From Dehalococcoidia bacterium (GTDB lineage: Bacteria > Chloroflexota > Dehalococcoidia > UBA2979), in NCBI GenBank assembly GCA_965262725.1, contig OZ253555.1:1477256-1541255 (forward strand): a DNA stretch of 64,000 bases. Reading direction: 5' to 3'. How positions within the stretch are numbered: position 1 is the stretch's first letter; each line of letters opens with the position of its first letter. Positions 4,144 through 33,375 of the stretch are shown in pieces. Under the pieces are notes generated by a model. It saw only the letters and a program-made list of their open reading frames with translations, was not told where the DNA came from and made no database searches. Position numbers and translations under genes: made by a program.

Positions 4144-7281
<3,138 letters not shown>

Positions 7282-10627: not shown

Positions 10628-12225
<1,598 letters not shown>

Positions 12226-12229
<4 letters not shown>

Positions 12230-15572: not shown

Positions 15573-15790
15573 CGAGAAGCCCTCCGGGTTGTTCTGCAGC
15601 ACTCATGGGGTGTCGTGCCAGGAGCACTGATCCATTAGGCCGTCGCAGGAACCAACCCGCCGGGTCGCACGAGCAGCGCGAAGCGGGAGAGGAACTGAGA
15701 CACGATGGCCTTGTACCTGGGCGGAGGTACTGGAGCTGCCACGGACCTGAGGACTGGCACCGGGCCATCGCCGCGGAAGGGGGTGAGCTG

Positions 15791-16603
15791 GTGTGGGAGG
15801 ACCCGCTCGCCGAGCTGCCTCGTCGGAGTAATAGCGCGGATTGGGACGCAAGCCTGGGCGGAGTGAGCCCAGACGGCCAGACGCTGGTGGCGCATGTCTG
15901 CGAGCGAGGAGTCTGTTGGGAGTTCGATCGCCCGCCGAGCGAGGATGCAGTAGAGGGGCTCTGGGCTTCTGTCGACGGGGGCGAGACGTGGGAGAGGTGG
16001 GGCGACTTCCCGAAGGGGCTGGTGCGGGAGTGGGTCTCGGTCGTGACGGAGGAGGATGTCGTTGTCTTCTCGCCCTCGGACGCAACTGACGCGTACCGGG
16101 CGTGGTGGTTCCGCTCGGGGGAGGACATGGCGCCGCCGGAGGGCATCGACCACCCGCGCATCCTGGGGTGGCGCACCGGCGGAGACGCCCCCGAGCCCAT
16201 CTGGGAGGATGGCGACGGCACCGTCGCTGTCTCTGCCTCCGGTGATGATCTTCCCAGGCCTCCCGGCTATTCGTTCGCGATCCCCCTTCCCGACGGCTCG
16301 ATGCTGTGGAGCGAGGTCACATTGCGCCATGGGAACCGGGAGAGGCCGGGGGCGCGAGACCTCGTCCTTTACCTGAGCGACCAGGGCGAAACCGTGTGGG
16401 CGTATTCGTGGGACGGGCCGCGCTCGCTTGTGCTGATCGGCCACGTGGAAGGGCAGCTCTTTGCGGGATTCCTCGGAACCTGGTCATGCGGGGACGGAGT
16501 GGACGCGGTCCTGGTGGACCTGGGGTCGCGCTCTCTCCATACCCTCCTCGGGATCGAGGGGGGCACCGTTGTTCCCTTCGCGGCGCGGCCGGCACCCGAC
16601 TAG
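15791..16603 (+). CDS. Hypothetical protein (~270 aa), Trp/Asp/Glu-rich, no recognised domain.
   Basis: Long ORF with non-repetitive composition. A GTG at 15791 is preceded by SD GGAAGGGGG. The track ORF starts at 15605, but its first 60 codons are Arg-rich. The overlapping minus-strand ORFs are Pro/Ser/Arg-rich artefacts. Confidence 0.5.
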   Translation: MWEDPLAELPRRSNSADWDASLGGVSPDGQTLVAHVCERGVCWEFDRPPSEDAVEGLWASVDGGETWERWGDFPKGLVREWVSVVTEEDVVVFSPSDATDAYRAWWFRSGEDMAPPEGIDHPRILGWRTGGDAPEPIWEDGDGTVAVSASGDDLPRPPGYSFAIPLPDGSMLWSEVTLRHGNRERPGARDLVLYLSDQGETVWAYSWDGPRSLVLIGHVEGQLFAGFLGTWSCGDGVDAVLVDLGSRSLHTLLGIEGGTVVPFAARPAPD

Positions 16604-17138
16604 CCTCCCGCGTTGACTCCTGCTGCCCGCGCGCGCCCTGCGCGTGACGCGTGCCTCCGGGCTTGCTCATCCCTCGAGGCGCACGCCGTCGGAATGCCAG
16701 CGGAGGTCGTCGCCGTGCGCGCAGCCATCGACGCCGTCGTCGGTGCGGATGTGCATCCAGCCGCGGGAGATGCCGTCGGGCTCGGCGACCGTGCGGTTCG
16801 GCAGGCACGCCACGATCGGCGCGGCGACCGAGTCGCCCTTCGCACACGGTCAGGCACGTGTCGACGGCGACCTCGACCGGCAGGCGATCGTCGAACCGCG
16901 CTGACGCTCCCCGTCTCGATCTCGGCACCTGCGAGTGGACAATTTACCAGCTGCGCGCTGATCCCCCCAAATCGGGATCGTATCGGTCCCCCGAAGATCT
17001 GGGAGGACTCGCCCCGGAGTGTCAGTCGGGAGCGACCGCCCGGGGCAACCGACCTTCGTCGCGCAACCGCATTCCGGGACCTCTGGTGGTCGCGCTCGCC
17101 GCACGCGGCGTCGACATCCTGAGTGCGAGCGCGCCGCG

Positions 17139-19670
17139 CTACGCCTCCTCGAGGTCCTCGGTGAGGGCGGACGCGAGCTGCTCGCCCCCGGACTGGGAGC
17201 GGACCCCGTCGACGAGATCGAGGTCGCCGAGGCGCCGGATCGCCCGCACGAGCGGGGCGACTCGCTTGCCCGTGGGGGAGGAGAAGAGGCGCTCGATGAT
17301 CTCCTTTCCGTCACGCGAGGGCCTCCCGGAGGCACCCAGCACGGCCCGCTCCCTGGGCGTGGACCACCTCAGGACCTCGTAGAGCCAGTCCCCGAGGGCC
17401 GCGTCGTCGCCCGCTGCACCGGCGAGACCGACGTACTCGAGCGCCGGCCCCTCACGGGCCAGAGCCGCTCGCTCCGCGGTCGAGCCACCCTCCGCTGCGC
17501 GCAAGATTCCCAGCAGGCTCCGCGACTCCTCGGCGCTCGTCTGCAGTGCCCTCCCCCGCGACGGCGCGTACTCGGTCAGCCGCCCCGCGGCGGCCGCCGC
17601 AAGCGGCTCCCATGTGATATCCGGGTCCGCGCGTGAGAGCACCTCGAGCGCGCGCAGGGTCTCCCCCGGCTCCTCCGCCACGCGCTTCGCGAGCGCCTCC
17701 TCGAACGTCGGCCGGTCCGCCGGCTCGACCGAGAGCCTCGCAGCGCAGTCCTCCCAGCCCGGCAGCGCGGCGTAGGCTGCGAGGGCGTCGCAAACTCGCT
17801 CCGCGTCGCCGGACGCCCGCACCGTCAGCCACTCGAACCGGCGCAGGAGCGCGTGCGCTCCCTCGGCCCAGCCCGCACCGCCGCCTGCGTCGATAGCGAC
17901 GGCCGTCGCCCTCGCCGCGATCGCCTCCGCGTCGGCCCGGCCGACGAGCGAGAACAGATCCGCGAGGCGCGCGGCCACCGAGGGAGTCAGCGGCGGCCAC
18001 ACCTCGGCCTCGCGCCCGCCCCGGGCGAGCAGCTCGGTGACGTCTCGCCATTCGTCGTCGGGGCGGAGCTCCTCCGGGATCTCCGCAAGGCGGCTCGCGG
18101 CGAGCAGAAGGGTGGGCGGCGACGACGAGGGCACCCGCATGAACCCGGACCCGGCGAGCGCTTCCCAGAACCCCGTCCGGCCGGCGAGCTCCACGAGCCC
18201 GTCCGCCTCCTCCCGCATCAGGGAATTGTCGATGAGGGGTCCGTAGAGCAGCTGCAGCGCGCGCTCCGGAGGAGCACCGAATGCGATGGCCGCGAGATGC
18301 GCCTCGACGCGCGCATCGAGGAGAGGAGCGACGCCGGGCAGAATCGGATCCTCCCGGCGCAGGTCGGCGGCCACCTCGGGGCCCTGCTTCCGCTGGCTCG
18401 CGTAGTACGCGAGGCTCGCGATCGGGAGGTCGTGCTGCCAGCGCCGGTGCAGCGCGCCGATGCCGTTGACGTAGAGCTTCAGCTCTCGGGGACTCGGCGC
18501 CCGATCGCCTCCCGCAAGCTGGTGCTGGTAGAGGCGGTAGAGAGCGTAGTGGTCGGTGTCGTGCTCCGGGAGTGCGCGGCGCAGCAGCGAGGCGAGGTAC
18601 TCGCGCCAGTCGCTGAGCAGCAGCAGCGGCACCTCGAAGTGCACCTGGATGCTCTTGTCGAGGAAGGACTCCGCCAGCGTGCGCGGCGGTGATCCTCCCA
18701 CCTCGGGGCGGGCGACCAGGCCGTCCCACAGGCGGTCGATAGCGCCCTTGTCGTACGGCAGCAGCACCCAGAGCGAGTCGAGCCAGGGCGGGCGCGGATC
18801 GCTAGTGTGGTGCAGGAACGTCTGTAGCGTCGCCCACACCGCGCGTGCGTCCTCGGGAGCCACGCGGTCGAGGTTGTCGACGACGAGGACGAGACGTCTC
18901 GTGGGATGACCATCGAGCGCGGCGCACATGAGGTCGCCGAACTCGCGCTCGAACTCGACGGATGTCGGGTCCGGCGTCTCGACCGTCTCGCGGTCGGACT
19001 GCGTGACCGACTGCACCGAGAACAGCTCGAGCCACCGGGCGGCGGAGTCGTCCCGCCGGAGGCAGTGGGCAAGCCCCGCTACGGCGAGCGCGAAGACCGC
19101 CAGCCCGCCGAGGATCCCGGCACCCGAGCGCCAGGTGGCGGGATCGCCCGAAGAGAGCCCCGCGTTCAGCAGCGCGACGCCCGACGGCACCAGGACAGCG
19201 AAGAGGACGCCTGCCACGATGCCCGCCGGCGTGATCCTGGGCCGCGTGTGCTCGACGCGGTCCCTCCTGGAGAGGCTCTCACGCCGTTCGCGCCACTTCT
19301 TGCCGTCGACCCACTCCTTCTCACCGAGCAGGATGTCGATGAGCGTCTCGAGAAAGGAGCGGCGCAGGGGATCGCCCTCGTGCGCCCAGGCGTCGAAGAC
19401 CGCGACGCGCTCGTCCTGGCCGCTCATGCGCTCGGCGAGGAGCCGGACGACCGTGGACTTCCCGGAACCCCAGCGGCCCTCGAGCCCGATCGTGCGCCCG
19501 CCGTCCTCACGGGTGATCAGCTCATGGATGGCGGCGGCGATCGGCTCGTGCGATCCGAACTGGTCCTCGTCGACCGGCGCATCGTCGAGCGTCCACGTGG
19601 GGCACGACGCACCCGGACGCGCATCGTCAGCGATGGCGGGGCTCCTGTCGGGCGGGGAGAGGCCGGCCAT
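17139..19670 (-). CDS. KAP-family P-loop NTPase (843 aa from the ATG at 19670) with two transmembrane helices inserted in the NTPase domain.
   Basis: Walker A GLEGRWGSGKST. Hydrophobic inserts ITPAGIVAGVLFAVLVPSGVALL and ILGGLAVFALAVAGLAHCL. Walker B LVLVVDNLDR. The track ORF extends to 19982 through a (GT)n-encoding hexanucleotide repeat; that Arg/Gly/Pro-rich extension is unlikely to be coding. Confidence 0.85.
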   Translation of the reverse strand: MAGLSPPDRSPAIADDARPGASCPTWTLDDAPVDEDQFGSHEPIAAAIHELITREDGGRTIGLEGRWGSGKSTVVRLLAERMSGQDERVAVFDAWAHEGDPLRRSFLETLIDILLGEKEWVDGKKWRERRESLSRRDRVEHTRPRITPAGIVAGVLFAVLVPSGVALLNAGLSSGDPATWRSGAGILGGLAVFALAVAGLAHCLRRDDSAARWLELFSVQSVTQSDRETVETPDPTSVEFEREFGDLMCAALDGHPTRRLVLVVDNLDRVAPEDARAVWATLQTFLHHTSDPRPPWLDSLWVLLPYDKGAIDRLWDGLVARPEVGGSPPRTLAESFLDKSIQVHFEVPLLLLSDWREYLASLLRRALPEHDTDHYALYRLYQHQLAGGDRAPSPRELKLYVNGIGALHRRWQHDLPIASLAYYASQRKQGPEVAADLRREDPILPGVAPLLDARVEAHLAAIAFGAPPERALQLLYGPLIDNSLMREEADGLVELAGRTGFWEALAGSGFMRVPSSSPPTLLLAASRLAEIPEELRPDDEWRDVTELLARGGREAEVWPPLTPSVAARLADLFSLVGRADAEAIAARATAVAIDAGGGAGWAEGAHALLRRFEWLTVRASGDAERVCDALAAYAALPGWEDCAARLSVEPADRPTFEEALAKRVAEEPGETLRALEVLSRADPDITWEPLAAAAAGRLTEYAPSRGRALQTSAEESRSLLGILRAAEGGSTAERAALAREGPALEYVGLAGAAGDDAALGDWLYEVLRWSTPRERAVLGASGRPSRDGKEIIERLFSSPTGKRVAPLVRAIRRLGDLDLVDGVRSQSGGEQLASALTEDLEEA

Positions 19671-19920
19671 CGGCGTGAGAGCGAGATCATACGCCCGGCC
19701 GCGCGGGCGGCACACCAAGGGGAGGGCTCCTCCGCGCCTCCCTCGCCGGTGCGCGTGCGGCAGGGGTGAGCAGCCGGCGCTGCGCCCGGGCGAGCGAGAG
19801 GAGGCGGGCGGCCGCGGTCGCCCGCCCGCCGTACACGCCCCGGCGAGGCGCCGGCTGAGCCGCCCGCTCCGCGGGCCGGGCACCGCGCGTCGGCTGCCCC
19901 GCTCACGTCCCGATCCCCCG

Positions 19921-19968
19921 CCCGTGCCGGTGCCCGTGCCGGTGCCCGTGCCCGTGCCCGTGCCCGTG
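19921..19968. repeat. Tandem hexanucleotide repeat (CCSGTG) x8, immediately 5' of / overlapping the extended KAP NTPase reading frame.
   Basis: cccgtg ccggtg cccgtg ccggtg cccgtg cccgtg cccgtg cccgtg, read directly. On the minus strand it is in-frame and encodes (GT)8. Confidence 0.9.
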
Positions 19969-20119
19969 CCGCGAAGCCTCAACGGCGCCGGAGGACGTGG
20001 CGACCCCGTCCGTCTCAGGGCGTGCGAGGGGAGGGGACGTCACAACCGACCGCGCAGCCGGCGCGTCGGCCGGCTAGACCCAAGCCGGCTGCCGGTCCAG
20101 GGACGAGCGGCGAACTGCC

Positions 20120-20942: not shown

Positions 20943-22523
20943 ATGGCCTACCGGGAGGTACACGGGGTGGAGATCCAGGAGATCATTCGACGCTGGCAGG
21001 CGGGGCTCAGCCAGCGCCGCATCGCCAGCGGGATGGGGTTGTCGCGTCAGACGGTCCGCCGCTACATCGACGCGGCCGAAGCGGCCGGCCTCACACCTGA
21101 CGGTCCCGAGCCGAGTGAGGAGCAGCTCGCCGCGCTGGCGACGCTGAGCCTCTCCGGCCCGCGGCAGGTCGAGGCGCCGAGCGAAGAGCTGCTCTCGCCC
21201 TGGGCGGAGCAGATCGAGCGCTGGCTTGAGACCGACCGCCTGCAACTGACGCGCATCCAGGAGCTCCTCGCCGGACGAGGCTGCGAGGTCTCCTACACCA
21301 CGCTGCGGCGTTTCATCCGGCGCCGCGGCTGGCGCCACCGGCTGCCGTCGACCGTGCGCATGGACGACGGGCCGCCGGGCGAGGTGGCGGAGATGGACTT
21401 CGGCCGCCTCGGCTTCATCCGGGACCCCGAGAGCGGCCGCCGGCGCGCGGTGTGGGCGCTGGTCGTCGTCTGGCGCTACTCACGCCACTGCTTTGTGTGG
21501 CCCACCACCAGCCAGACGCTGGACGCTGTGATCGAGGGCCTGGAGGAGGCCTGGGCCTTCTTCGGGGGCGTGCCGCGCTACCTCGTCATCGATAACTTCC
21601 CGGCCGCCGTCGCCGGGGCCGACGCGCTGCACCCGCGCTTCACGCGGGGCTTCCTCGAGTACGCCCGCCACAGAGGCTTCATCACCGACCCCGCGCGCGT
21701 GCGTCATCCCCGCGACAAGCCGCGCGTCGAGCGCAGCATCCCCTACGTGCGCGAGCGCCTCTTCAAGGGCGGCGACTTCCGGGACGTCGTCGACCTGCGC
21801 TCCGCCGCCCGCAGCTGGTGCCTGGAGGTGGCGGGACAGCGCATCCACGGCACGACCCGCCGCCGGCCGCTCGAGGTCTTCCGGGAGGAGGAGCTCCCTC
21901 TCCTCGCTCCCTGGGACGGCGAGCCCTACGAGGTCCCCGACTGGCGGACCGCCACGGTCCATCCCGACCACCACATCGCCTGCCAGTACGCGCTGTACTC
22001 GGTGCCGTCCACGGCCTGCCCGCCCCGCCAGAAGGTCGAGGTGCAGCTCGGCTCGAAGCTGGTGCGCATCTACCACCGCGGTCAGCTCATCAAGGTCCAC
22101 CCGCGCCAGCGCCGGGGCGGCCGCGCCACCGACCCGAACGACTACCCGGCCGAGCTCACCCCCTACACCAGGCGGGCGCCCGACTGGATACAGCGCCGCG
22201 CCGCCGAGCTGGGGGAGGCCGTGGGCGCCTACGCCGAGCGTCTCTTCGAGGGCTCCCTGCCCTGGGCGAAGCTCCGGCAGGGCCACAAGCTGCTGCGCCT
22301 CGCCGAGCGCTACTCCCCGGACCGCCTCGACGCCGCCTGCCGCCGCGCGCTCGAGGTCGACCTCATCGACGTGCGCCGCCTCGAGCGCATCCTCGTCCGC
22401 GCCCTCGACCAGGAGAGCACCCCAGACCAGCCCGAGCTGCCGCCTCCTCCGGGGCGCTTCGCCCGCTCGGGCTCCGTCTTCGCCCAGTCCCGCACGCAGA
22501 CCCCGACAGGAGCACCACGATGA
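20943..22523 (+). CDS. istA: IS21-family transposase IstA (HTH plus DDE integrase core), 526 aa.
   Basis: N-terminal HTH (LSQRRIASGMGLSRQTVRRYI). rve-type catalytic region. IstA-typical length and IstA-IstB ATGA overlap. Confidence 0.9.
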   Translation: MAYREVHGVEIQEIIRRWQAGLSQRRIASGMGLSRQTVRRYIDAAEAAGLTPDGPEPSEEQLAALATLSLSGPRQVEAPSEELLSPWAEQIERWLETDRLQLTRIQELLAGRGCEVSYTTLRRFIRRRGWRHRLPSTVRMDDGPPGEVAEMDFGRLGFIRDPESGRRRAVWALVVVWRYSRHCFVWPTTSQTLDAVIEGLEEAWAFFGGVPRYLVIDNFPAAVAGADALHPRFTRGFLEYARHRGFITDPARVRHPRDKPRVERSIPYVRERLFKGGDFRDVVDLRSAARSWCLEVAGQRIHGTTRRRPLEVFREEELPLLAPWDGEPYEVPDWRTATVHPDHHIACQYALYSVPSTACPPRQKVEVQLGSKLVRIYHRGQLIKVHPRQRRGGRATDPNDYPAELTPYTRRAPDWIQRRAAELGEAVGAYAERLFEGSLPWAKLRQGHKLLRLAERYSPDRLDAACRRALEVDLIDVRRLERILVRALDQESTPDQPELPPPPGRFARSGSVFAQSRTQTPTGAPR

Positions 22524-23293
22524 CCGCCACCACCTCAGACCTCCGCCCGCTGCTCAAGCGCCTCAAGCTCGGCCGTATGCTCGACACCCTGCCCGAGCGC
22601 ATCGCCCTCGCGCGGCGCGACCACCTCGACTACGCGGACTTCCTGCAGATCCTGCTCGTCGACGAGGTGAGCCGCCGCGACCACGGGCGGTTGGAGCTGC
22701 GCCTGCGCCAGGCCGGCTTCGAGCAGCTCTGCCGCCTCGAGGACTTCGACTGGGCGGCCGCCATCCGGCTCGACCGCCGCCTGCTCGACGCCGCCTTCTC
22801 GCTGCACTTCCTCGATCGCCGCGAGCACGTCCTGCTCGTCGGCCCCGTCGGCGTCGGCAAGAGCTTCTTAGCCCAGGCGCTCGGCTACTCAGCCGTCCGC
22901 TCCGGACGCAGCGTCCGCTTCGCCCCGGCCGACCACTACTTCCGCGAGATGGCGCAGGCCCGCGTCGACCACTCGGCCGAGAAGGTCTTCCGAAGCTTCC
23001 TCGCGCCCGACCTGCTCATCCTCGACGACCTCGGGCTCCATCGCCTCAGCGCGCAGCAGTCCATCGACCTCTACGAGCTGGTCATCGGGCGCCACCGCAG
23101 CTCCAGCTTCGTCATCACCTCGAACCGCGCCGTGGAGGAATGGCTGGGTCTCTTCGACGACCCGATCCTCGGCAACAGCGCCCTCGACCGCCTCGCCAAC
23201 GCCAGCTACCAGATCGTGATCGAGGGCGATAGCTACCGCCAGCGGCTCTCGCCGCACCGCGCCCTGCTCGAGGCGCAGACGGGAGGTGATTGA
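22520..23293 (+). CDS. istB: IS21-family ATP-binding helper IstB (DnaC-like AAA+), 257 aa.
   Basis: Walker A LVGPVGVGKSFLA. Walker B LLILDDLG. The start ATG overlaps the istA stop (ATGA at 22520-22523). Confidence 0.9.
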   Translation: MTATTSDLRPLLKRLKLGRMLDTLPERIALARRDHLDYADFLQILLVDEVSRRDHGRLELRLRQAGFEQLCRLEDFDWAAAIRLDRRLLDAAFSLHFLDRREHVLLVGPVGVGKSFLAQALGYSAVRSGRSVRFAPADHYFREMAQARVDHSAEKVFRSFLAPDLLILDDLGLHRLSAQQSIDLYELVIGRHRSSSFVITSNRAVEEWLGLFDDPILGNSALDRLANASYQIVIEGDSYRQRLSPHRALLEAQTGGD

Positions 23294-23485
23294 CGCGCTA
23301 GACGCTCACTGATATCAAGCCGCCTACCGGCGTCCCGGGTGGTCTAATGACCGTGGCGACGCGTGGCTCAATGACCCTGGCGATCGACACGGCACTATGT
23401 TGGCACGTATAAATTCACATAGATTCACGTCTAATTCACTGACAGTAGGCCGACAACCGGTCAGAATCCCATCTCGTTACGGGCA

Positions 23486-23800
23486 GTGCGCTTGCACGGG
23501 GTGCTCGCCGGGTTTGCCCAGGGCGCTAGCTACGACGTGCAGGTACGCGCAGTCGCGGACGTCGAGGGAGCCTGGTCCGGGAGCCGGACGGGAACGCCCG
23601 CCGAGCCCGGCGGCTCGACCGCGACGGCGGCGACCCTGGCGCTCGACGCCCCGCTGGGGGGCATGATCGAGCCGGGAACGGACACCGACTACTTCAAGCT
23701 CGTGTTGAGCAGTGCGGCCACGATTCTGATCTGGACGTCAGGAGACCTCGATACGGTGGGGGTATTGCTGGACAGCGGCGGCGCGGAGCTGGAGTCATGA
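23486..23800 (+). pseudogene. 5'-truncated remnant of a secreted protein: C-terminal bacterial pre-peptidase (PPC)-like domain.
   Basis: ...ASYDVQVRAV then GSTATAATLALDAPLGGMIEPGTDTDYFKLVLSSAATILIWTSGDLDTVGVLLDSGG. There is no signal peptide or N-terminal domain. The frame opens only 50 nt downstream of the IS21 right end. Confidence 0.4.
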
Positions 23801-23852
23801 CTAGCGCATCCCTATCTCACGAAGTCCATCGCAGTGCGAGCGGATTGCCCAA

Positions 23853-26558
23853 GTGACGAGTCTGCTGCGGCTTCTCGATCCGAACGAGCCTGACTCGGCG
23901 GCGCGAGCTGCCGGGGCTGTCGCCGCCCTGCTCGACCGCCTGCCGTCACCACGCTCAATCGCCGAACTTCGTCTCGGGCCGGAGGACGTTGAGTGGCTGC
24001 GAGTGTGGGCGGGCGGGATGTCCGCTGCAGCGGCGAGGTGGAGCGGCGACCGGCGGCTCCTGGGCGACCTGGGGGCCGCGCGCCAGCAGGCGTTCGGGCT
24101 GGTCTTCCTCGCACTCGCGGCTGAGACGGCGCGGCGGGATGCGGCCGAGGGGCACGTGTGGGGCCCCGTCCGGCGCCGCGTATCCAGCGCGGCCGCCTCG
24201 ATGCTCTTCAGTCAGGGGCAACCGAAGCAAGCGCTCAAGGACGCGCTGGAGTCCGCGTGCAGGCGCTGGCAGTTGCGGCATGTCTTTGGAGAGGAAGGCC
24301 TGCAAGCCTGGTACGCCTCGGTCTACCTTCAGTTCGGGTTCACGGAACGGACCATCGAGTCGCGACTGCCGGCGCGGCTTGCGAATGCCGAAGCGCTGCC
24401 CATAGCGGTTCACCACCTGCTCCACGACCGGAGACTGAAGTCCGACTCGTTCGCGTCCCTCTGGAACACCCTTATCGGTGTGCGCCGTCGCAACGTATCG
24501 GACTTGAGAGCCCGCCAAGTGCTTGCGGGGAGCCCGTGGATTCTGCCGGAGTGGACTGACGCGCTCCTCGAGGCTGCCGTGGCGCGCATGGAGTTGACGC
24601 CGTCGGGCCTGTCCGATGAAGAGGTTGCGCCCTCGCTCTTCACCGTTCCGCGTCTGGAGTGGGTCGGTCAGCAACCGCGCTTCATCGCCGAACTGGTCAA
24701 CCTTGCCGACGTCGCCGGCGAGTTGGAGCCGGGTGCCTACCGATTGCGGGCCGGCACGGTCAGCGTGGAGTTCACGATCGACGACCTCGGCACCCCTCAC
24801 GGCCTGCGCCCGGTGGGACTTCCACTGTGGCCAGCCCGGCTCACCGCCACAGTTGAGCAGCACCACGGTGAGGACTCATGGGATCCCGTCGCTGGCGAAG
24901 AGATGGTCCTGTGGGAACCCTCCGACGAAGTCGCCGCCTTCCGCGACGACGGGTTCCCGCTGGACGCCTGGAGCACCGCGCTGCACCCAAATCAGCCCTA
25001 CACACTCGTGCTTGCACCGGGACTCGACGTCAAGCCCGTCCAAGACCGTTGGGCGCATGCGGATGGATGCCTCGCGGTCCAGTTGCCGGCTGGCTGGGCG
25101 GAGGATACGGGCGTGTACCTCGATGGCGAGAGAATCTGGGATCCGCTCGTCACCGCCGATGGCCAGAAGACGCTTGCTGGGCTGTCTATGCCTCCCGCTG
25201 GCACGAGGCTGGGTGAAGCACCGAGGATTCAGTTGTTCGGCCTGTCGGAGCGGGTCACTGAAGTAAAGGCCGATCGGCGTGCAGTGGCCTTCGAGCAGCA
25301 CGGGGGGAGCATCGAAGCGTTCCTTTCCCCCGGCGAGCACGCCGCCCGCCCCTCCGTGCTCGTCCGCACCAAAGACGCAAGCGGAGAGGTTAGGGCGGGG
25401 CGGATTCAGCTCACCTGGTTCGGGGCCCAGCACCTTCGCCCGTACGGCTGGGCGCCGTTCCCGGTCGGTGTGATCGATGAGCGCGATCTCGGTCAGCGCA
25501 TCCGCGCGTTCGCGCCGGAGTGGCGTGAGCCGACATTGCTGGTTGGCAACCGTCCGATCGGGCGGATCGGCAGCCGCGGTCGAGCACGGGGCTCGGTGGG
25601 AGCGTGGGGCGCGCCGCTTCTCATCGCCGATGGGCAGTTCAATCGCGAGCCCGACCGCCAACTGCTGCTGGCCGATGCCATCACGTCTCGCGGCGTCATC
25701 CTGGACATGAACGATGACGACTTCGGAGGCGCGGCCCTGGTCACCCTCCGGCAGCCCGTCAACCTCGGCGAGGTCAGAGTCTTCGGCATCGATCGCGGCG
25801 GCGCTGTCGACGACATCCGGCCCACCCCAACGGGTGAGCGGTCGTGGGTGATCGAGGTGCCTCCAGAGAACGCCCTGGCGATCGTCTACGGGGAGGAATG
25901 GATTGGGGGGTGGTGGTGGCGGCCCCCCGTACCGCCCCAGTCGGCCGAAGGTGCCGTTCACCTGATAAGGCTGCTGCGCGACGCGCGGGCTCCGCTGCTC
26001 TCGCGTGACTATGGCGGTTGGGCGCGGGGAGCGCTGCGCGCGCACCCCGCCAGCGCGCTCGTCTGGCTCTTCAACCTCAGCGAAGCTGGAACGCTCTCCG
26101 CCGCGCCGCCGGAATCAGACGACTTCGCTCCAGTGGTTCGCGACCTGCTCGACGGATGGGAGCCGGACCACATATGCGTCGCTCACCTTGCCCGAACTCT
26201 GCGTGACTCAAGCGAGGAGTTCATCGAAGGGCTCGCCGACACTGCTCTGCGAGCGCCGGGCCCGACCGCACGCCTGCTCAGTTCAGTCTTCGAGGACTCG
26301 GGGCTCCGGCGGCGTGTCCGCGGAGCCCTCCTTGAGGCGCTTGGTTGGGGAGACGCATCGAGCGCCGGCGTGCTCAATGAGATCGGATGGCAGTTCGATG
26401 TGGACAGCGGGTTCCTTGAACGTCTCGGGCGGTTAGCGAACGATGGGTTGCGCGGGCAACCGATTCCCCGCGTGCAGCGGCAGAATCTGCTCGTGGCGAT
26501 GAACCTGAGCGGCGACTTTCGGCGGTGGCTCGCCGGACGCCTGATCTCGGAGGACTGA
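23853..26558 (+). CDS. druH: Large (901 aa) protein with no recognisable domain: a DruH-like partner of the downstream DUF1998 helicase (Druantia type III-like architecture).
   Basis: GTG start at 23853, stop at 26558. Composition is non-repetitive and Trp-rich. No known motifs were recognised. The stop lies 4 nt before the SD/GTG of the next gene. Confidence 0.8.
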   Translation: MTSLLRLLDPNEPDSAARAAGAVAALLDRLPSPRSIAELRLGPEDVEWLRVWAGGMSAAAARWSGDRRLLGDLGAARQQAFGLVFLALAAETARRDAAEGHVWGPVRRRVSSAAASMLFSQGQPKQALKDALESACRRWQLRHVFGEEGLQAWYASVYLQFGFTERTIESRLPARLANAEALPIAVHHLLHDRRLKSDSFASLWNTLIGVRRRNVSDLRARQVLAGSPWILPEWTDALLEAAVARMELTPSGLSDEEVAPSLFTVPRLEWVGQQPRFIAELVNLADVAGELEPGAYRLRAGTVSVEFTIDDLGTPHGLRPVGLPLWPARLTATVEQHHGEDSWDPVAGEEMVLWEPSDEVAAFRDDGFPLDAWSTALHPNQPYTLVLAPGLDVKPVQDRWAHADGCLAVQLPAGWAEDTGVYLDGERIWDPLVTADGQKTLAGLSMPPAGTRLGEAPRIQLFGLSERVTEVKADRRAVAFEQHGGSIEAFLSPGEHAARPSVLVRTKDASGEVRAGRIQLTWFGAQHLRPYGWAPFPVGVIDERDLGQRIRAFAPEWREPTLLVGNRPIGRIGSRGRARGSVGAWGAPLLIADGQFNREPDRQLLLADAITSRGVILDMNDDDFGGAALVTLRQPVNLGEVRVFGIDRGGAVDDIRPTPTGERSWVIEVPPENALAIVYGEEWIGGWWWRPPVPPQSAEGAVHLIRLLRDARAPLLSRDYGGWARGALRAHPASALVWLFNLSEAGTLSAAPPESDDFAPVVRDLLDGWEPDHICVAHLARTLRDSSEEFIEGLADTALRAPGPTARLLSSVFEDSGLRRRVRGALLEALGWGDASSAGVLNEIGWQFDVDSGFLERLGRLANDGLRGQPIPRVQRQNLLVAMNLSGDFRRWLAGRLISED

Positions 26559-26562
26559 CGTA

Positions 26563-29500
26563 GTGCCGGGGAAGCTGGACTCACTCGGGCTCGCGGAGTC
26601 GCTGCGGCGACGAATGGCCGACTTCGCGTCGGCGGACCTGTACGTGACGGACCCCGAGATTCAGCGCGCCGCCGGGGCCGTATGGGAGGACGAGGAGTCG
26701 GGGCTGGTTGGCGAACTGTGGGTCGAGGGGATCATGCCGCCAATGCCCGGTCAGCGCCTACAGAAGATCGCGGAAGCGGGCGGGTTCGACCAAGACTTGC
26801 TCGGGCGCCTGACGGAGTCTGGCGCTTGGGGCGACTGGCGGCTTCACGAGCACCAGGAGCGCGCCATTCGCGCTGCCTCGAGCGATCTAGGCGGCGCCGT
26901 CATGGTTTCTGCGGGCACTGGCGCTGGGAAGACGGAGAGCTTCCTGTTGCCGCTCGTCGACCGGCTGTGGAGCGCGCCTCGCCGCGGTTCCGGCATGCGC
27001 GCGCTCATCCTCTACCCCATGAACGCTCTCGTCCGTGACCAGATGGATCGCCTTGATGCGTGGCTTGGCGGTCAGTCCCGGCTCACCTATTTCCACTTCA
27101 CGAGCGAGACACCCGAGACTGAGTCCGAGGCGGACCGGCGTGGGATAGCGAAGCAGTTCGCGAGCCGCGTTCGATCGCGGGACGAAGCGCGGCGCGCTCC
27201 TCCCGACATCTGCGTGACGAACTACTCGATGCTCGAGTACATGCTCGCTAGGCCGCAGGACGCACCATTCTTCGGCGAGGGGCTCGAGGTCGTCGTCCTC
27301 GATGAGGCGCACCTCTACACGGGGACGCTCGCGAGCGAGATCATGTTCCTGCTGCGCCGGGTGCTGCTCCGCTGCGGACTGACCGCGACGGACATCCTGC
27401 ACCTCGCAACGTCGGCGACGCTCGGCGGCGACGACGACGAACTGCGGGCGTTCCTCTCCCAGCTCACGGCCACGCCGCCCGGGCGCGCCTGCGTCATCCG
27501 GGGGCGACCTCAGCCGTCCGCGCCGCTGCCTGCGTCAGGCAGCGACCAACGTGCCGGAGCACTCGTGCAGCTCGATGGTAGGCTCCCTTCCAACGCTGGT
27601 GGGACCGATGTGTTGTCAATACTGGGGGCGGAGACTGACGACGACTCCGACGCGCCGATCGTGCTTGGTCGGCGGTTGGCGGACTGGCCCGCCACGGAGC
27701 GCCTGCGGTCCGCCCTGCACGCCGAGCCTGGAGTGCCACACCTTCTAGTCGAACTCGCCGAGAAGGTGTGGCCTCACGGCGGCAAATCGAATGTCGCTGC
27801 CACCGCCGCTCTGCTGCGCTGGACGTCAATAGCTCAATCGGGGCCGGACGCTCCGCTGCTCGCGCATCGGCTGCATCTGCCGCTGCGCGGCCCTGGCGGG
27901 TTGGGCCTCTGCCTCAACGGCGACTGCTCAGGCCCCGAGGAACGGCAGAAGACCGGATGCGGCGCTGTCCAGGATGCCCGTGGCGACCGATGCCGCTGGT
28001 GTTCCTCTGTCGTCCTGCCGATCGCGCGCTGCGAGGGCTGCGGGCTCGTGGTGCTCACCGCGCGGCAGCAACACGCGAGATTCGTGCCGGAACCCGTTCC
28101 TGGTCGCGGTACGAGGCGAACCGCGATGGAAGTGCGCGGCTTACTGCTCGGGTTCGCCGACCCTGCACCGGGGGCGGTGGAAGTGCTCCCGGACGGTTCG
28201 GTGGGAGGCGGAGGCGTGCGCCTGCGCCCCCTGCCGCCGCTCGATGCTGACACGCCGTACGAGACGGGCTGCGCACACGAATTATTCGAGCCGCTCGCGC
28301 GCGGCGCCGGGTTGCTGCTGAGCGTGATCGCCGAGACATCTCTCGCCGCTATGCCGCCGGACAGCGACCCCGATCGCGCCCGCACGCGGCCCGCCGGGGG
28401 CAGGCGGCTGCTGGTGTTCAGTGACAGCCGCCGGGAGGCTGCCCGGCTCGGGCCGGCGCTCACCTGGGGCCATGAGGTGCAGCTAGTTCGGGCGGAGATC
28501 CTGCGGCTGATGGACGCTGCATCCCCGGACGATGTGTCTGCAACCCGCGAGTACCTCAAGTCTGACATTGCTCGCCTGCAGAATCTGCTGGAGCGGGATC
28601 CCCCATCATCGACGCGCCAACTCATCGAGCGGGACTTGGCTGACCGGGTGACGGACCTACGGGCGCACATCCTGGGCGGGCCCATGCACGACTGGGAGCG
28701 CGCCTTGGCCCGTTCGGACAAGCTCGCTGAGATCCTGTCGTTTGACGGGGCGAGCATCCACCGGCGGGCCGAGTGGAGTGACGAGTCGTGGAGCGAGAAT
28801 CACCGGGCGAACGGCAGGCGCGCCCGCGCGTTGCTGGCGCGTGAGTTCGTCGCCCCACCCGGTCGGAGCGCCGGCGCGTCGCTCGAGGCGCTGGGGCTGG
28901 CGCTCGTGGACTATCCGGAGCTGCGTGAACTGCCGCCGCCAACGCTCGGCCAGTTGCCGAGTACGATCCGCGAGCGTGCGGTCGAACAGTGGCCCCAGTT
29001 CGTCGCAGCCCTGCTCGACTCGCTTCGCGTTGACGGCGGGATTACAACGGGCGAACAGGAACTCGACGACTACTACTCCGAGGACCATGCGCCGATCGGA
29101 AAGTGGATCAGCTTCGAAGGCCCGGACCGGCGCGACCGCGCCCGGTTCCGCGGCGCCACCTCGCGGCACAGGCGGAATGCCTTCCTCATCCGATTGCTGC
29201 TCGACTTCGGCGCGACGGGCGAGCAGCTGGATGAGTTCGAGCCGTTGCTGGCGCGCGCCGCCTTCGACTGGTTGCGAACCGCGGAGCCACGCCCCGAGTG
29301 GCTGGAGCGCCACCAGACCGAGCCCTGGTTCCGCGTGCGGTTCCCCGATCTCGCGCTGCGCAGGCCGGACGAGGTCTGGCTGGACGAGAGCCGCCTCATC
29401 GTCGGGTTCGTAGTGAATGGCCGCCATCCGCGGGGAACCGGCCGCTTCGTGCAGCGGAGGCAATCCGAGCTTGACGCCGATCCCCGCTTCCAGCGCCTGC

Positions 29501-31686
29501 GGTCGGAGCTCCGTGAGGAACCGTCGCTCCGTGTCGGCCTGTGGGCGGAGGAGCACTCCGCGCAGCTTTCGCCGGAAGAAGCGCGGCGTATTCAGGATCT
29601 CTTCGAGAGCGGGGTCCGCAACGTGCTGAGCTCGAGCACGACGATGGAGCTGGGTGTCGACATCGGCGGCCTGAGCGGCGTCCTCATGACCAACACGCCG
29701 CCCAGCCGCGCCCGCTACCTACAGCGAGCCGGGCGCGCGGGACGGCGCGGCGAGGGAGCCTCGGTCACCCTGCTGTTCGCCCGCAACCAACCGTTCGACC
29801 AAGAAGTCTTCCGGAACTTCGCGCAGTATCTCAGTGCCCCGATGCGGCCCCCGTCGGTACTGCTCGAACGGGACCGTCTGTCGCTGCGGCACGCCTACTC
29901 GCACGTTCTCGGCAGCTTCTTCCGCGCGCTGTGGGAGCCGGGCCAGAGTACGAGCACCATGGGAGCGTTCCGTCAGATGGGGGACTTCACAGGCAGCCCG
30001 TCGACCGTGCGGTGGCGATCCGGCCCCAAACCCGGGATCAGCGATCAGCCGCACCCGCCCGATCCCGCCTCGCCACCTGCCTGGTGGACCGCCGATGGCG
30101 GCCCACTCGAGGCACAGTTTCGGCGGTACATCGAGCACCTGGCCGGCCACCCGGGCGGGATCGCCGCCGACCTTCGGACCATCTTGTCCAACGCGAGAGC
30201 CGAGGAGCAGCTCGACGACTGGCCAAGATTCTGCGAGGAACTCCTCGACCGCTTCGACGAGTCGACCGCCGCATGGCGCGGCGAGTTCGACGAGTTCCTC
30301 GCCGCATGGGACCTGGCTGGGACAAGGCCGCTTGCTAACTTTCTCCACTTCCAGCTCGCCGAGCTGCGCGGGCGACCGGTGATCGCGCATCTCGCCGAGC
30401 ACCAGTTCCTGCCTCGCTTCGGTTTCCCACTGGGAGTCCTGCAGCTTCGCATCGACACCGACCGGGCCAATGGTGATTCCTGGGCGCTCGATCGGTCCGG
30501 GGCGTTGGCGCTGCGGGAGTACGCGCCGGGTGCGAAGGTGCTGGCGGGTGGACGGCAGATCACCTCTCGCGGGCTCGTCAAGCACTGGGTCGGGGAAGAC
30601 GAACAAGCGCTCGGTGCCCAGCGCCGCCTCCTGACGTGCTCCGAAGAACACTCGTATCTCTCAACCGGCGTCGCGCTGCACGATGAGTGCCCGTACTGCG
30701 GGGCAGCGCCGTCGGGGTCGGGAAACCAGGTCATCAGGGTCGCGCGCGGCTTCAAGACCGCGGCGTGGGATCCTCCGCGGCGCGCACGAGGAACGGAGCT
30801 CGTTGGCATGATCGAGGTCGTGCCGCCCGCCATCGGTCACGCGATGTCCGGCGAGCACACGGATGTCGAGATCGAGTCCGTGCCCGGCCTCCGCGCGGTC
30901 CACCTCGAGGGTGCGCAGCTGATCACCCTCAATGCCGGGGAGCACGGCTTCGGATTTCACATCTGCTATCGGTGCGGCTACGCGGGCTCCGAGCTTACGC
31001 GAGCGGCCACCGGGGCTCAGAACCTGCCGCCCGCGGCTCAGGATCACTCGCCCCTCTGGATGCGCCGCCGCCGCCGCGCTTGCTGGACCCAGGGCGCGCT
31101 GTCTTCGTTCGCTCGCAACCGTGTCCTGCTGCACGAGGAGACGACGGACGCGCTCGTGCTGGACTTCCGGGGCTGGAGTGTGGACCTGCGGGCAGAACGC
31201 GGTGCCCTGCTCGCCTGGGCTGCCGGATTGCCGCATGCGGTCGGGCAGACGCTCGACCTCGACGCCGGGGATGTCGCCGCCTCCCCGTACCCATTCAGCG
31301 ACGGCGTGGGCATCATCCTCCACGACACGGCTGCGGGCGGCGCCGGCCATGTCTCCGAACTGCTGCGAGGCTCCATGGCGCGCGATGTCCTCGAAGCCCT
31401 CCGCGTCCGCCTGTACGTCGACGAGGCGCACAACGCCCGATGCGTGCAGGGCTGCCTCTCGTGCGTGTTGAGCTACGAGGCGCAGCACTTGGTCGAAGTC
31501 GGCCTCGATCGCCCGCGTGGGCTCGCGCTCCTCGACGCGCTCCTCTCGGGCGGCGCAGGCACCATGCCGGAGCCCAGCCCCGCGCCGGCCGATGGGACAC
31601 CGATGCTGCAGCACGATGCGGAGGAACGGATAGCTCACGCTGCGGCGCGCAGACGCGGGCGATCCCGAAGGCGGACTTCAGGGTGA
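26563..31686 (+). CDS. druE: DruE-like SF2 helicase (1707 aa) with a C-terminal DUF1998 zinc-binding domain.
   Basis: Motif I VSAGTGAGKTESFLLP. Motif Ia LYPMNALVRDQ. TNYSMLEYML. Motif II VVLDEAHLYTG. Motif VI YLQRAGRAGRRGEG. C-terminal Cys clusters CPYCGAAPSG, FHICYRCGYAG and CVQGCLSCV match the DUF1998 4-Cys motif. GTG start with SD GGAGGA at 26549-26554. Confidence 0.9.
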   Translation: MPGKLDSLGLAESLRRRMADFASADLYVTDPEIQRAAGAVWEDEESGLVGELWVEGIMPPMPGQRLQKIAEAGGFDQDLLGRLTESGAWGDWRLHEHQERAIRAASSDLGGAVMVSAGTGAGKTESFLLPLVDRLWSAPRRGSGMRALILYPMNALVRDQMDRLDAWLGGQSRLTYFHFTSETPETESEADRRGIAKQFASRVRSRDEARRAPPDICVTNYSMLEYMLARPQDAPFFGEGLEVVVLDEAHLYTGTLASEIMFLLRRVLLRCGLTATDILHLATSATLGGDDDELRAFLSQLTATPPGRACVIRGRPQPSAPLPASGSDQRAGALVQLDGRLPSNAGGTDVLSILGAETDDDSDAPIVLGRRLADWPATERLRSALHAEPGVPHLLVELAEKVWPHGGKSNVAATAALLRWTSIAQSGPDAPLLAHRLHLPLRGPGGLGLCLNGDCSGPEERQKTGCGAVQDARGDRCRWCSSVVLPIARCEGCGLVVLTARQQHARFVPEPVPGRGTRRTAMEVRGLLLGFADPAPGAVEVLPDGSVGGGGVRLRPLPPLDADTPYETGCAHELFEPLARGAGLLLSVIAETSLAAMPPDSDPDRARTRPAGGRRLLVFSDSRREAARLGPALTWGHEVQLVRAEILRLMDAASPDDVSATREYLKSDIARLQNLLERDPPSSTRQLIERDLADRVTDLRAHILGGPMHDWERALARSDKLAEILSFDGASIHRRAEWSDESWSENHRANGRRARALLAREFVAPPGRSAGASLEALGLALVDYPELRELPPPTLGQLPSTIRERAVEQWPQFVAALLDSLRVDGGITTGEQELDDYYSEDHAPIGKWISFEGPDRRDRARFRGATSRHRRNAFLIRLLLDFGATGEQLDEFEPLLARAAFDWLRTAEPRPEWLERHQTEPWFRVRFPDLALRRPDEVWLDESRLIVGFVVNGRHPRGTGRFVQRRQSELDADPRFQRLRSELREEPSLRVGLWAEEHSAQLSPEEARRIQDLFESGVRNVLSSSTTMELGVDIGGLSGVLMTNTPPSRARYLQRAGRAGRRGEGASVTLLFARNQPFDQEVFRNFAQYLSAPMRPPSVLLERDRLSLRHAYSHVLGSFFRALWEPGQSTSTMGAFRQMGDFTGSPSTVRWRSGPKPGISDQPHPPDPASPPAWWTADGGPLEAQFRRYIEHLAGHPGGIAADLRTILSNARAEEQLDDWPRFCEELLDRFDESTAAWRGEFDEFLAAWDLAGTRPLANFLHFQLAELRGRPVIAHLAEHQFLPRFGFPLGVLQLRIDTDRANGDSWALDRSGALALREYAPGAKVLAGGRQITSRGLVKHWVGEDEQALGAQRRLLTCSEEHSYLSTGVALHDECPYCGAAPSGSGNQVIRVARGFKTAAWDPPRRARGTELVGMIEVVPPAIGHAMSGEHTDVEIESVPGLRAVHLEGAQLITLNAGEHGFGFHICYRCGYAGSELTRAATGAQNLPPAAQDHSPLWMRRRRRACWTQGALSSFARNRVLLHEETTDALVLDFRGWSVDLRAERGALLAWAAGLPHAVGQTLDLDAGDVAASPYPFSDGVGIILHDTAAGGAGHVSELLRGSMARDVLEALRVRLYVDEAHNARCVQGCLSCVLSYEAQHLVEVGLDRPRGLALLDALLSGGAGTMPEPSPAPADGTPMLQHDAEERIAHAAARRRGRSRRRTSG

Positions 31687-32634: not shown

Positions 32635-33375
32635 TCAGATTGTTAGTCGCGGGCCCAGCTCCCGAAGCCGGTCGCGGCGGCGGAGGTAGTCCGTCACCGC
32701 TTGCGCGACGATGGCCCAGTACTCGGACGTGTGGCCCCGGACGCGCAGATGGGCGAGTTCGTGAGCGACGATGTAGTCGATGATCGCGGGCGGGGCCATG
32801 ATGACGCGCCAGTTGAAGCGCAGCGTCCCGTCAGGGGAGCAACTCGCCCAGCGCTTGCGCTGACCCCGGATCAGAGTCGCCTTCGGATGGACGCCGAGGA
32901 GGCCTGCCATTCGCTCGATACGGGGCGGGAGCTCCAGGGCGGCGCGTTCGCGGTACCACGCCTCGAATGCGGCGCGTACGGTCACTATCCGCTCTTCGCC
33001 CCGCACGGTCCGCGGCACACCCACATCGAAGTGCCAGTGGCGAAAGCGGATTGCGACCCCATCGTCGTCGGTCGGATGGACGGTCATCGCCACGGACCGC
33101 CCTAGGTACGGGAGCGACTCCCCGCTCACAAACCGCCGAGGCGGCGGAGCGGCAGACGCCGCGCCGTCGTGCCGCATGATCCACCGTGCGCGGCGCCGCA
33201 CGGCCGCTTCGAGATGGTCGGCCGGCGTGTCGGCCGGCGCCGCCACGGTGACCGATCCTGGCTCATCGACTGTGATCTGGATCGTCTTGCGCCGCCTCCG
33301 GCTGCGGACGACCTGGTAGCGGATCCGGGCGTCGCCGAAGTCGACCTCGCCACGCTCTGTCATGCGAGGCGTCAC
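32635..33375 (-). CDS. YgjP-like zinc metallopeptidase (DUF45/WLM-like; HExxH), 246 aa.
   Basis: HELAHL plus a downstream E/H. Overall similarity to UPF0054/YgjP hydrolases, a family often linked to R-M loci. Confidence 0.8.
   Translation of the reverse strand: MTPRMTERGEVDFGDARIRYQVVRSRRRRKTIQITVDEPGSVTVAAPADTPADHLEAAVRRRARWIMRHDGAASAAPPPRRFVSGESLPYLGRSVAMTVHPTDDDGVAIRFRHWHFDVGVPRTVRGEERIVTVRAAFEAWYRERAALELPPRIERMAGLLGVHPKATLIRGQRKRWASCSPDGTLRFNWRVIMAPPAIIDYIVAHELAHLRVRGHTSEYWAIVAQAVTDYLRRRDRLRELGPRLTI

What the first reader, a model, noticed from the sequence alone, without database searches (positions are those of the whole stretch)
23853..26558. 901-aa domain-less protein as candidate sensor/effector
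No Walker, nuclease, methyltransferase, HTH or TM motifs could be recognised by eye in 901 residues. Composition is Trp/Arg/Leu-rich and non-repetitive. It is the obligatory partner gene of the helicase. In Druantia the function of this component is unknown, so any detectable remote fold would be informative.
Basis: inference. Interest (0 to 1): 0.6.

Follow-up and report, generated by a model that had tools for sequence, protein, structure and literature searches.

The report
Divergent DruH partner of compact Druantia
The 901-residue "domain-less" protein is a very divergent version of DruH, the DNA-engaging partner of the Druantia type III anti-phage helicase DruE. It is ordinary in kind, but current annotation models do not detect it.

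Summary
The ORF is real: 23853-26558 (+), 901 aa. It sits 4 nt upstream of a 1707-aa DruE helicase that has no PLD nuclease domains. The pair is a self-contained two-gene cassette, found in the same order in 16 of 21 related loci with no third conserved gene.

No Pfam, NCBIfam, PADLOC or PDB sequence model matches the protein. It is not structureless, though. A confident AlphaFold2 model shows a helical N-domain, about five Ig-like beta-sandwich modules and a helical C-domain. That is the architecture reported for DruH in 2026 cryo-EM preprints.

Profile-profile comparison with genuine E. coli-type DruH gives one colinear match, in the N-domain (E=1.4e-3, z=6.4). It places the family's near-invariant F85/E91/R94/R95/W103 on EcDruH F69/E75/R78/R79/W88, residues whose mutation abolishes defence.

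The family has at least 870 clusters at 50% identity. Some members duplicate the N-domain or fuse DNA-binding domains to it.

The best reading is a divergent DruH in a III-B-like Druantia system. It most likely engages phage ssDNA or 3' ends and licenses DruE.

The parts
23853..26558 (+). druH-like gene (901 aa, GTG start, TGA stop at 26556-26558)
   Evidence: ORF list and translation. Full-length homologues P0001-P0022. 870 representative clusters found by profile search.
23853..24602 (+). N-terminal all-helical domain (aa 1-250). It is the most conserved part and carries a net charge of +5.
   Evidence: AF2 models (the domain alone has pLDDT 89.2 and pTM 0.88). 22 of the 42 columns that are >=90% conserved lie here. 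Charge. No solved structural relative.
24096..24161 (+). Signature motif, aa 82-103: G-LVF-LALAAE-TA-RR-DAAEG-HVW (G82, F85, E91, R94, R95, E99, G100, W103)
   Evidence: Invariant or near-invariant across 143 family members. Aligns to EcDruH F69/E75/R78/R79/G84/H85/W88. Mutating those EcDruH residues abolishes defence (PMC13192584).
24645..25928 (+). Central beta-rich region (aa 265-692), about five Ig-like beta-sandwich modules
   Evidence: DSSP strand pattern of the AF2 model. Foldseek matches only strings of Ig/FnIII/Big domains in PDB and BFVD.
25938..26555 (+). C-terminal helical domain (aa 696-901) with conserved R709, W738, N878 and R890
   Evidence: AF2 model. Conservation analysis.
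26549..26554 (+). GGAGGA Shine-Dalgarno sequence for druE, inside the 3' end of the druH-like gene. The stop and the next start are 4 nt apart.
   Evidence: Read directly from the sequence.
26563..31686 (+). druE: compact YprA/MrfA-like helicase (1707 aa) with DEAD, Helicase_C and MZB/DUF1998 domains and no PLD nuclease domains
   Evidence: PADLOC DruE3 at 5.9e-188, with profile coverage ending at 1677 of 2055. Pfam hits. GAGKT and DEAH motifs and Cys pairs are present; no HxK(x4)D motif.
20943..23293 (+). IS21 element (istA and istB) immediately upstream. It is not part of the system but it abuts the cassette.
   Evidence: Pfam rve, Mu-transpos_C_2 and IstB_IS21 hits. Homology with relative L003 begins only at 23842.

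Best explanation
The gene encodes a highly divergent DruH. DruH is the non-helicase component of a two-gene Druantia type III anti-phage system. This one is the compact kind, III-B-like, whose DruE has no PLD nuclease domains.

Shown here:
- It is co-transcribed with DruE and probably translationally coupled to it.
- The two genes move together as a cassette.
- It has the DruH architecture: helical N-domain, Ig-like array, helical C-domain.
- It keeps the N-terminal E/RR/W patch that genetics shows is essential in E. coli DruH.

Inferred by analogy with characterised DruH:
- The basic N-domain engages exposed ssDNA or 3' ends of phage replication or recombination intermediates, and possibly trims them 3'-5'.
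- That step recruits or licenses DruE, which unwinds the phage DNA 3'-to-5'.
- The variable Ig-like array provides recognition or scaffolding.

Because this DruE has no nuclease domain, any DNA cleavage must come from the DruH-like N-domain or from host nucleases such as RecBCD-type enzymes.
For: - DruE identity: PADLOC DruE3 at 5.9e-188; Pfam DEAD, Helicase_C and MZB. No PLD motif, and the DruE3 profile is covered only to 1677 of 2055.
- Synteny: homologue followed by DruE in 16 of 21 genome loci. Only these two genes are conserved across the 22 loci that include the window.
- Cassette: DNA homology to L003 spans 23842-31665 only.
- Coupling: SD sequence and a 4-nt spacer before druE.
- Architecture: AF2 pLDDT 85.6, pTM 0.73. 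It matches published DruH cryo-EM descriptions. Foldseek returns only Ig-like strings such as NCAM and DSCAM, as reported for DruH.
- Remote homology: hhalign of 143 family members against 44 genuine DruH sequences gives one colinear N-terminal hit, 35-109 to 30-94, with E=1.4e-3 and z=6.4 against column shuffles. Reciprocal HMM hits fall in the same region.
- Functional mapping: F85/E91/R94/R95/W103 align with EcDruH F69/E75/R78/R79/W88, all of which are loss-of-function sites.
- DNA link: other family members fuse RNA polymerase alpha-CTD/HhH or sigma-70 region 4 DNA-binding domains to the N-terminus. The N-domain is the only net-basic part of the protein.
Against: - No DruH model detects the protein or 27 relatives that were tested: PADLOC DruH3 models and NCBIfam NF038336 YjiT_fam gave nothing.
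- The Ig-like and C-terminal regions show no sequence similarity to DruH (z about 0). The published ssDNA/ATP pocket residues (N672, Y733, R1031, H1062, R1064, K1067) could not be mapped.
- The N-domain match is marginal (E about 1e-3) and covers about 75 residues.
- The model has about five Ig-like modules, not the six reported.
- The biochemical role of DruH itself is disputed between the 2026 preprints.
Confidence: 0.75

Rival explanations
1. It is a phage-protein sensor and toxin, not a DNA-end processor. The Ig-like array recognises a phage structural protein (tail or baseplate). Recognition releases the protein from DruE. The free protein is toxic and causes abortive infection.
For: In M. 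smegmatis, DruH alone is toxic, DruE neutralises it, and a phage minor tail protein activates the system (PMC13316683). Wu et al. propose that DruH senses phage through Ig-like/baseplate-J-like parts. In this family the Ig-like modules are more variable than the N-domain. The protein diverges faster than DruE: 62 vs 71%, 43 vs 51% and 29 vs 37% identity. BFVD hits are phage tail and baseplate Ig strings.
Against: The BFVD and PDB matches are generic Ig-like similarity with TM<=0.14. The most conserved and only basic part is the N-domain. DNA-binding fusions in relatives point to DNA. This reading is not exclusive of the best explanation.
Confidence: 0.3
2. It is an analogous, non-homologous DruE partner. 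It would be an independent family that converged on a helical/Ig/helical layout and only resembles DruH, and its biochemical role would differ.
For: Every DruH HMM fails. Full-length profile comparison is insignificant. About 70% of the protein has no detectable similarity to DruH.
Against: The single significant match is colinear and at the same distance from the N-terminus. It superposes the conserved residues of both families on experimentally essential DruH sites. Gene order, partner and domain order are the same.
Confidence: 0.15
3. It is a decaying or silenced cassette. The IS21 immediately upstream has cut the pair off from its promoter, so the gene is intact in sequence but not functional in this genome.
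For: IS21 istA/istB end about 560 nt upstream. Homology with the closest related locus starts only 11 nt before the start codon, so no conserved promoter is visible.
Against: Both ORFs are intact over 901 and 1707 codons, and every conserved residue is preserved. Outward promoters from IS elements, or read-through, are common (general knowledge).
Confidence: 0.1

Closest known systems
DruH of Druantia type III-A (YjiT / STY4851-ECs_5259 family, NCBIfam NF038336; PADLOC DruH3). Example: E. coli plasmid CP057056.1 QMC18434.1, 1119 aa.
   Same: It lies immediately upstream of druE on the same strand. The layout is the same: helical N-domain, tandem Ig-like modules, helical C-domain. The N-terminal F..AAE..RR..G..W patch is conserved, and genetics shows it is essential in EcDruH. 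No known nuclease or DNA-binding fold is detectable.
   Different: It is 901 aa rather than about 1120 aa, with about five Ig-like modules rather than six. It has no HMM-level similarity to DruH, and the Ig and C-terminal regions cannot be aligned. Its partner DruE lacks the two PLD domains. It occurs in Chloroflexota, Verrucomicrobiota and Acidobacteriota rather than Enterobacteria and Pseudomonas.
Druantia type III-B (compact DruE plus DruH; Bell et al. PMC12458937; Himpich et al. 10.64898/2026.05.13.724758; M. smegmatis MSMEG_1253/1254, PMC13316683)
   Same: It is a two-gene system. DruE is about 1670-1760 aa with DEAD, Helicase_C and MZB domains and no PLD nuclease. The partner is a large unannotated protein.
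   Different: I could not test whether the published III-B DruH proteins, such as the 1132-aa M. smegmatis one, belong to this sequence family. No phylogenetic placement of this DruE was done.
MrfA/MrfB (YprA/YprB) repair pair
   Same: A YprA-family helicase with an MZB domain is paired with a second protein that, for DruH in one study, acts as a 3'-5' exonuclease.
   Different: MrfB is a DnaQ-like exonuclease. No such fold or motif is present here.

Membership tests
DruH (YjiT/STY4851 family; PADLOC DruH3) | Scores above threshold with the family's sequence models (NCBIfam NF038336, PADLOC PDLC00038-50) | tested here: not met
   No hits for the protein, for 18 close relatives even at E<=10, or for 9 distant relatives. 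The E. coli control scores 953 bits and E=0.
DruH (YjiT/STY4851 family; PADLOC DruH3) | Encoded directly upstream of druE and co-oriented with it, as a two-gene unit | tested here: met
   A 4-nt spacer with an SD sequence. Same arrangement in 16 of 21 loci. Only two conserved genes across loci. Cassette-limited DNA homology.
DruH (YjiT/STY4851 family; PADLOC DruH3) | Architecture: N-terminal helical domain, array of Ig-like domains, C-terminal helical domain | tested here: met
   AF2 model with pLDDT 85.6: helices 15-243, strands 267-688, helices 698-900. Foldseek finds only Ig-like strings. Compared with the published descriptions. It has about five modules rather than six. No coordinate superposition was possible.
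DruH (YjiT/STY4851 family; PADLOC DruH3) | Conserved N-terminal functional patch (EcDruH F69, E75, R78/R79, W88; PaDruH E64) | tested here: met
   hhalign of the N-domains gives E=1.4e-3 and z=6.4 against shuffles. F85/E91/R94/R95/W103 align to these residues and are >=90% conserved except F85, which is L or F. The equivalence with PaDruH E64 is inferred.
DruH (YjiT/STY4851 family; PADLOC DruH3) | ssDNA/ATP pocket at the Ig5/C-domain interface (Y670, N672, Y733, R1031, H1062, R1064, K1067) | tested here: inconclusive
   The Ig and C-domain regions show no alignable similarity. Conserved N597, R709, N878 and R890 exist, but their equivalence could not be shown.
DruH (YjiT/STY4851 family; PADLOC DruH3) | ssDNA binding, 3'-5' exonuclease activity, requirement for defence | not testable with these tools
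   Needs biochemistry and phage assays.
Druantia type III-B system | DruE with an SF2 helicase core plus MZB/DUF1998 and without C-terminal PLD nuclease domains | tested here: met
   Pfam DEAD, Helicase_C and MZB. The DruE3 profile is matched only to 1677 of 2055. No HxK(x4)D motif.
Druantia type III-B system | DruE falls in the III-B branch of the YprA phylogeny | not tested
   No tree was built. The reference sequence GIH50614.1 could not be retrieved with these tools.
Other Druantia/ARMADA accessory proteins (DruA-D, DruF, DruG, DruM, BrxHII, PglX) | Sequence match to the corresponding PADLOC models | tested here: not met
   No PADLOC family matched at E<=10.

The most novel reading that the evidence does not exclude
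This is a large DruH-like clade that annotation tools cannot see: at least 870 clusters at 50% identity, in Chloroflexota, Verrucomicrobiota, Acidobacteriota and some Proteobacteria. Its helical N-domain has no solved structural relative. In the most novel reading, that N-domain is a new nuclease or DNA-end-processing fold and supplies the only catalytic DNA-degrading activity of PLD-less Druantia systems. The N-domain would then be the true effector. The N-domain duplications and the alpha-CTD and sigma-r4 fusions would be ways of tuning its DNA engagement.
Probability: 0.25. Interest if true: 0.6.

Novelty: new member of a known kind. Interest (0 to 1): 0.35.

Why it matters
PADLOC-type tools need a DruH hit to call Druantia III, so they would leave this system uncalled. 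The same would apply to hundreds of similar systems in poorly studied phyla.

The comparison also sharpens what is universal in DruH. Only the short N-terminal E/RR/W patch and the overall layout survive across the two families. That points to the N-terminal patch, not the published C-terminal ATP/ssDNA pocket, as the core of the mechanism.

Because the partner helicase has no nuclease domain, this subtype is a clean test of whether DruH itself is the nuclease. The 2026 preprints disagree on that point.

Tried and rejected
- **Direct family searches:** Pfam, NCBIfam and PADLOC on the protein gave nothing.
- **PDB by sequence:** a profile search gave only noise.
- **Shallow profile comparison:** full-length hhalign with a shallow profile was insignificant. 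Only the deeper, domain-wise comparison gave a signal.
- **Ig and C-domain comparison with DruH:** z about 0. A weak C-terminal HMM hit to P0201 (5 bits) was not trusted.
- **Third word-indexed protein search:** the 106-sequence alignment added almost nothing.
- **Cluster names:** uninformative, all 'hypothetical protein'.
- **tblastn against plasmids:** no match for the protein or for a 1135-aa relative. The link to actinobacterial III-B DruH stays untested.
- **Third conserved gene:** looked for and none found.

Full report
**1. Observation**

The window is high-GC, 63-73%. The ORF at 23853-26558 (+) starts with GTG, encodes 901 aa, and is the longest ORF possible in that frame. It is a real gene:
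- 22 clusters of full-length homologues at 42-92% identity share the same start.
- Codon-position GC (0.74/0.52/0.78) matches the neighbouring gene.

The next gene, 26563-31686 (+), encodes 1707 aa. It begins 4 nt after the stop and is preceded by a GGAGGA sequence inside the first gene. It is a DruE helicase:
- PADLOC DruE3 at 5.9e-188, and Pfam DEAD, Helicase_C and MZB/DUF1998.
- GAGKT and DEAH motifs and zinc-ribbon Cys pairs are present, but there is no HxK(x4)D PLD motif.
- The DruE3 profile is matched only to position 1677 of 2055.

The 901-aa protein matches nothing in Pfam, NCBIfam, PADLOC or PDB sequences. It has no TM segment. Its Arg and Leu richness matches DruE and reflects genome GC. 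Only Trp (3.6%) is really enriched.

**2. Context**

The surroundings are a defence island riddled with insertion sequences:

| Feature | Coordinates |
|---|---|
| Type I R-M HsdR | 4144-7281 (-) |
| HsdS | 7357-8202 (-) |
| DDE transposase | 8546-9496 (-) |
| Nucleotidyltransferase | 9522-10130 (-) |
| HsdM | 10628-12229 (-) |
| McrB-like AAA_5 | 12917-14920 (+) |
| McrC | 14745-15572 (+) |
| KAP NTPase | 17139-19982 (-) |
| IS21 istA/istB | 20943-23293 (+) |
| The pair described here | 23853-31686 (+) |
| YgjP-like peptidase | 32635-33375 (-) |

**3. The pair is a two-gene cassette**

A scan of one genome per species found 21 related loci. The closest are in Dehalococcoidia and Caldilineaceae (Chloroflexota). 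Others are in Verrucomicrobiota, Acidobacteriota and one Alcaligenaceae genome.
- In 16 loci a DruE homologue follows directly on the same strand. The exceptions are contig ends, one divergent arrangement (L010), and L012, where an ISL3 transposase follows the homologue and no DruE is present.
- Clustering all ORFs from 22 loci gave only two conserved families, this protein and DruE. Every other cluster was a shadow ORF inside those two genes.
- Nucleotide homology between the window and L003 (85% identity) runs from 23842 to 31665. That is the two genes and nothing else.
- The protein diverges faster than DruE: 62 vs 71%, 43 vs 51% and 29 vs 37% identity. Wu et al. report the same for DruH.

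**4. Size and variation of the family**

The word-indexed search suggested a tiny family of 22 clusters. An exhaustive profile search found 870 representatives at E<=1e-3, of which 727 were at E<=1e-10. Most are 940-990 aa.
- Forms of about 1130-1240 aa carry a second copy of the N-domain. Both copies usually keep the signature residues.
- Longer forms (1460-2170 aa) have N-terminal extensions containing RNA polymerase alpha-CTD/helix-hairpin-helix repeats or sigma-70 region 4 HTH domains. These are DNA-binding modules.
- A 1403-aa 'hypothetical protein' next to a 1755-aa DruE on a Roseomonas mucosa plasmid is also a member (deep HMM, 1.6e-59). It lacks the E-RR motif.

**5. Structure**

AlphaFold2 with a 19-sequence alignment gave a confident model with pLDDT 85.6 and pTM 0.73. 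It has three parts:
- helices at 15-243;
- about 40 strands at 267-688, grouped into about five 6-9-strand modules;
- helices at 698-900.

**6. Comparison with what is known**

Five 2026 studies characterise DruH, so the component is no longer of unknown function.
[quoted passage not shown] That is the layout and the search behaviour found here.
- Hu et al. find an ssDNA-binding pocket at the Ig5/C-domain interface that ATP competes for, and no nuclease activity.
- Loeff et al. find 3'-5' exonuclease activity and an N-terminal cleft with R22, K28, E64 and E220.
- Wu et al. propose a phage sensor with dimer-dependent nuclease activity. They show that F69A, E75A, R78A/R79A, H85A/K87A/W88A, L129A and G136A/G137A abolish defence.
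- Li & He show that M. smegmatis DruH is toxic alone and is neutralised by DruE.
- Bell et al. and Himpich et al. define subtype III-B as DruH plus a compact DruE without PLD domains.

**7. Direct membership test**

I retrieved a genuine DruH from E. coli plasmid CP057056.1 (L023:2199-5555). It is 1119 aa and lies upstream of a 2104-aa DruE. PADLOC DruH3 gives E=0 and NCBIfam NF038336 gives 953 bits. I built a 44-sequence alignment of this family.
- BLASTP of the 901-aa protein against it is insignificant. One of the small hits pairs LVFLALAAETARRDAAEGH with VLFSIYAAEFIRRTHTVGH.
- With a 143-member profile, hhalign's only hit is colinear: residues 35-190 against EcDruH 30-194.
- With the N-domains alone, the match is residues 35-109 against 30-94, with score 29.8 and E=1.4e-3. 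Column-shuffled controls gave 14.3 +/- 2.4 with a maximum of 22.1, so z=6.4.
- Reciprocal HMM searches hit the same N-terminal stretch in several members of each family at E about 1e-3.
- The alignment places F85, E91, R94, R95, G100, H101 and W103 on EcDruH F69, E75, R78, R79, G84, H85 and W88. Of these, F69, E75, R78/R79, H85 and W88 are among the loss-of-function positions of Wu et al.. E91, R94, R95 and W103 are 98-100% conserved among 143 family members.
- The Ig-like and C-terminal regions show no sequence similarity (z about 0). The ssDNA/ATP pocket residues could not be mapped.

**8. Interpretation**

The protein is best read as a very divergent DruH in a III-B-like Druantia system. 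The following are shown:
- the gene pairing and cassette behaviour;
- the domain layout;
- conservation of the genetically essential N-terminal patch;
- association of the family with DNA-binding fusions;
- a basic N-domain (+5) on an otherwise acidic protein.

The mechanism is inferred. The N-domain engages exposed ssDNA or 3' ends of phage intermediates and may trim them. That licenses DruE to unwind. The Ig-like array mediates recognition or scaffolding. Because DruE here has no nuclease, any cleavage must come from this protein or from the host.

The main rivals are these:
- A phage-protein sensor and toxin model. This is compatible with the best explanation.
- Convergent, non-homologous similarity. 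The colinear match on functional residues makes this less likely.
- Silencing by the upstream IS21.

**9. Verdict**

The feature is a new member of a known kind. Interest is modest for three reasons: current HMM libraries miss this large clade, only the N-terminal patch is universal across DruH-like proteins, and the PLD-less subtype offers a clean test of whether DruH is the nuclease.

Noticed in passing
window 20943-23852: An IS21 element (istA 20943-22523; istB within the 21818-23293 ORF) ends about 560 nt upstream of the druH-like start. Homology with the closest related locus begins only 11 nt before the start codon, so no conserved promoter is visible. A 104-aa ORF at 23486-23800 in the gap has no Pfam match and may be a gene remnant.
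   Followed up: partly
window 4144-12229 (-): A type I restriction-modification system (HsdR 4144-7281, HsdS 7357-8202, HsdM 10628-12229). A DDE transposase (8546-9496) and a nucleotidyltransferase (9522-10130) sit between hsdS and hsdM, so the operon looks disrupted by an insertion.
   Followed up: partly
window 12917-15572 (+): A McrBC-like pair. The AAA_5 McrB-like ORF (12917-14920) overlaps a McrC ORF (14745-15572) by 176 nt. The McrC ORF matches only positions 105-317 of the McrBC profile, which suggests a frameshift or truncation.
   Followed up: no
window 17139-19982 (-): A 947-aa KAP-family P-loop NTPase lies between McrBC and IS21. It may be another defence-island component.
   Followed up: no
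window 37384-39018 (-) and 45581-46645 (+); 42000-48000: More transposases: a Mu-transposase_C/IS21-like one and a DDE_Tnp_1 one. There is also a lower-GC stretch (0.63-0.64 against about 0.69) with strong positive GC skew at 42-48 kb, which suggests recently acquired DNA.
   Followed up: no
family members P0033, P0042, P0087, P0141, P0052, P0061: Relatives of about 1130-1240 aa carry a tandem duplication of the N-terminal domain. In most of them both copies keep S35/E38/G82/E91/R94/R95/W103/Q160. In P0052 the first copy is degenerate (Q-A-R).
   Followed up: partly
family members P0058, P0155, P0095, P0100, P0049: Long relatives (1238-2171 aa) have N-terminal extensions with repeated RNA polymerase alpha-CTD/HhH domains or sigma-70 region 4 HTH domains. 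These are DNA-binding fusions.
   Followed up: partly
L022 (Roseomonas mucosa plasmid NZ_CP034905.1) 1764-5975: The 1403-aa partner of a compact DruE is a family member by deep HMM (1.6e-59). The E-RR motif is replaced by A-Q-S, and the protein has a roughly 460-aa N-terminal extension of unknown nature. An IS21 lies next to this cassette too.
   Followed up: partly
L012 (Blastocatellia MAG) 9890-19274: Here the homologue is followed by an ISL3 transposase and then a 1273-aa ORF with no Pfam match. No DruE is detectable. Upstream is a 1646-aa STAND-TPR-FHA-GGDEF protein.
   Followed up: partly
L023 (E. coli IncY plasmid CP057056.1) 2199-18660: A canonical Druantia III-A pair (DruH 1119 aa, DruE 2104 aa) sits on a conjugative IncY plasmid. 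Directly after it come another DEAD/DEAH helicase and a class I SAM-dependent DNA methyltransferase, an arrangement that looks like ARMADA.
   Followed up: no
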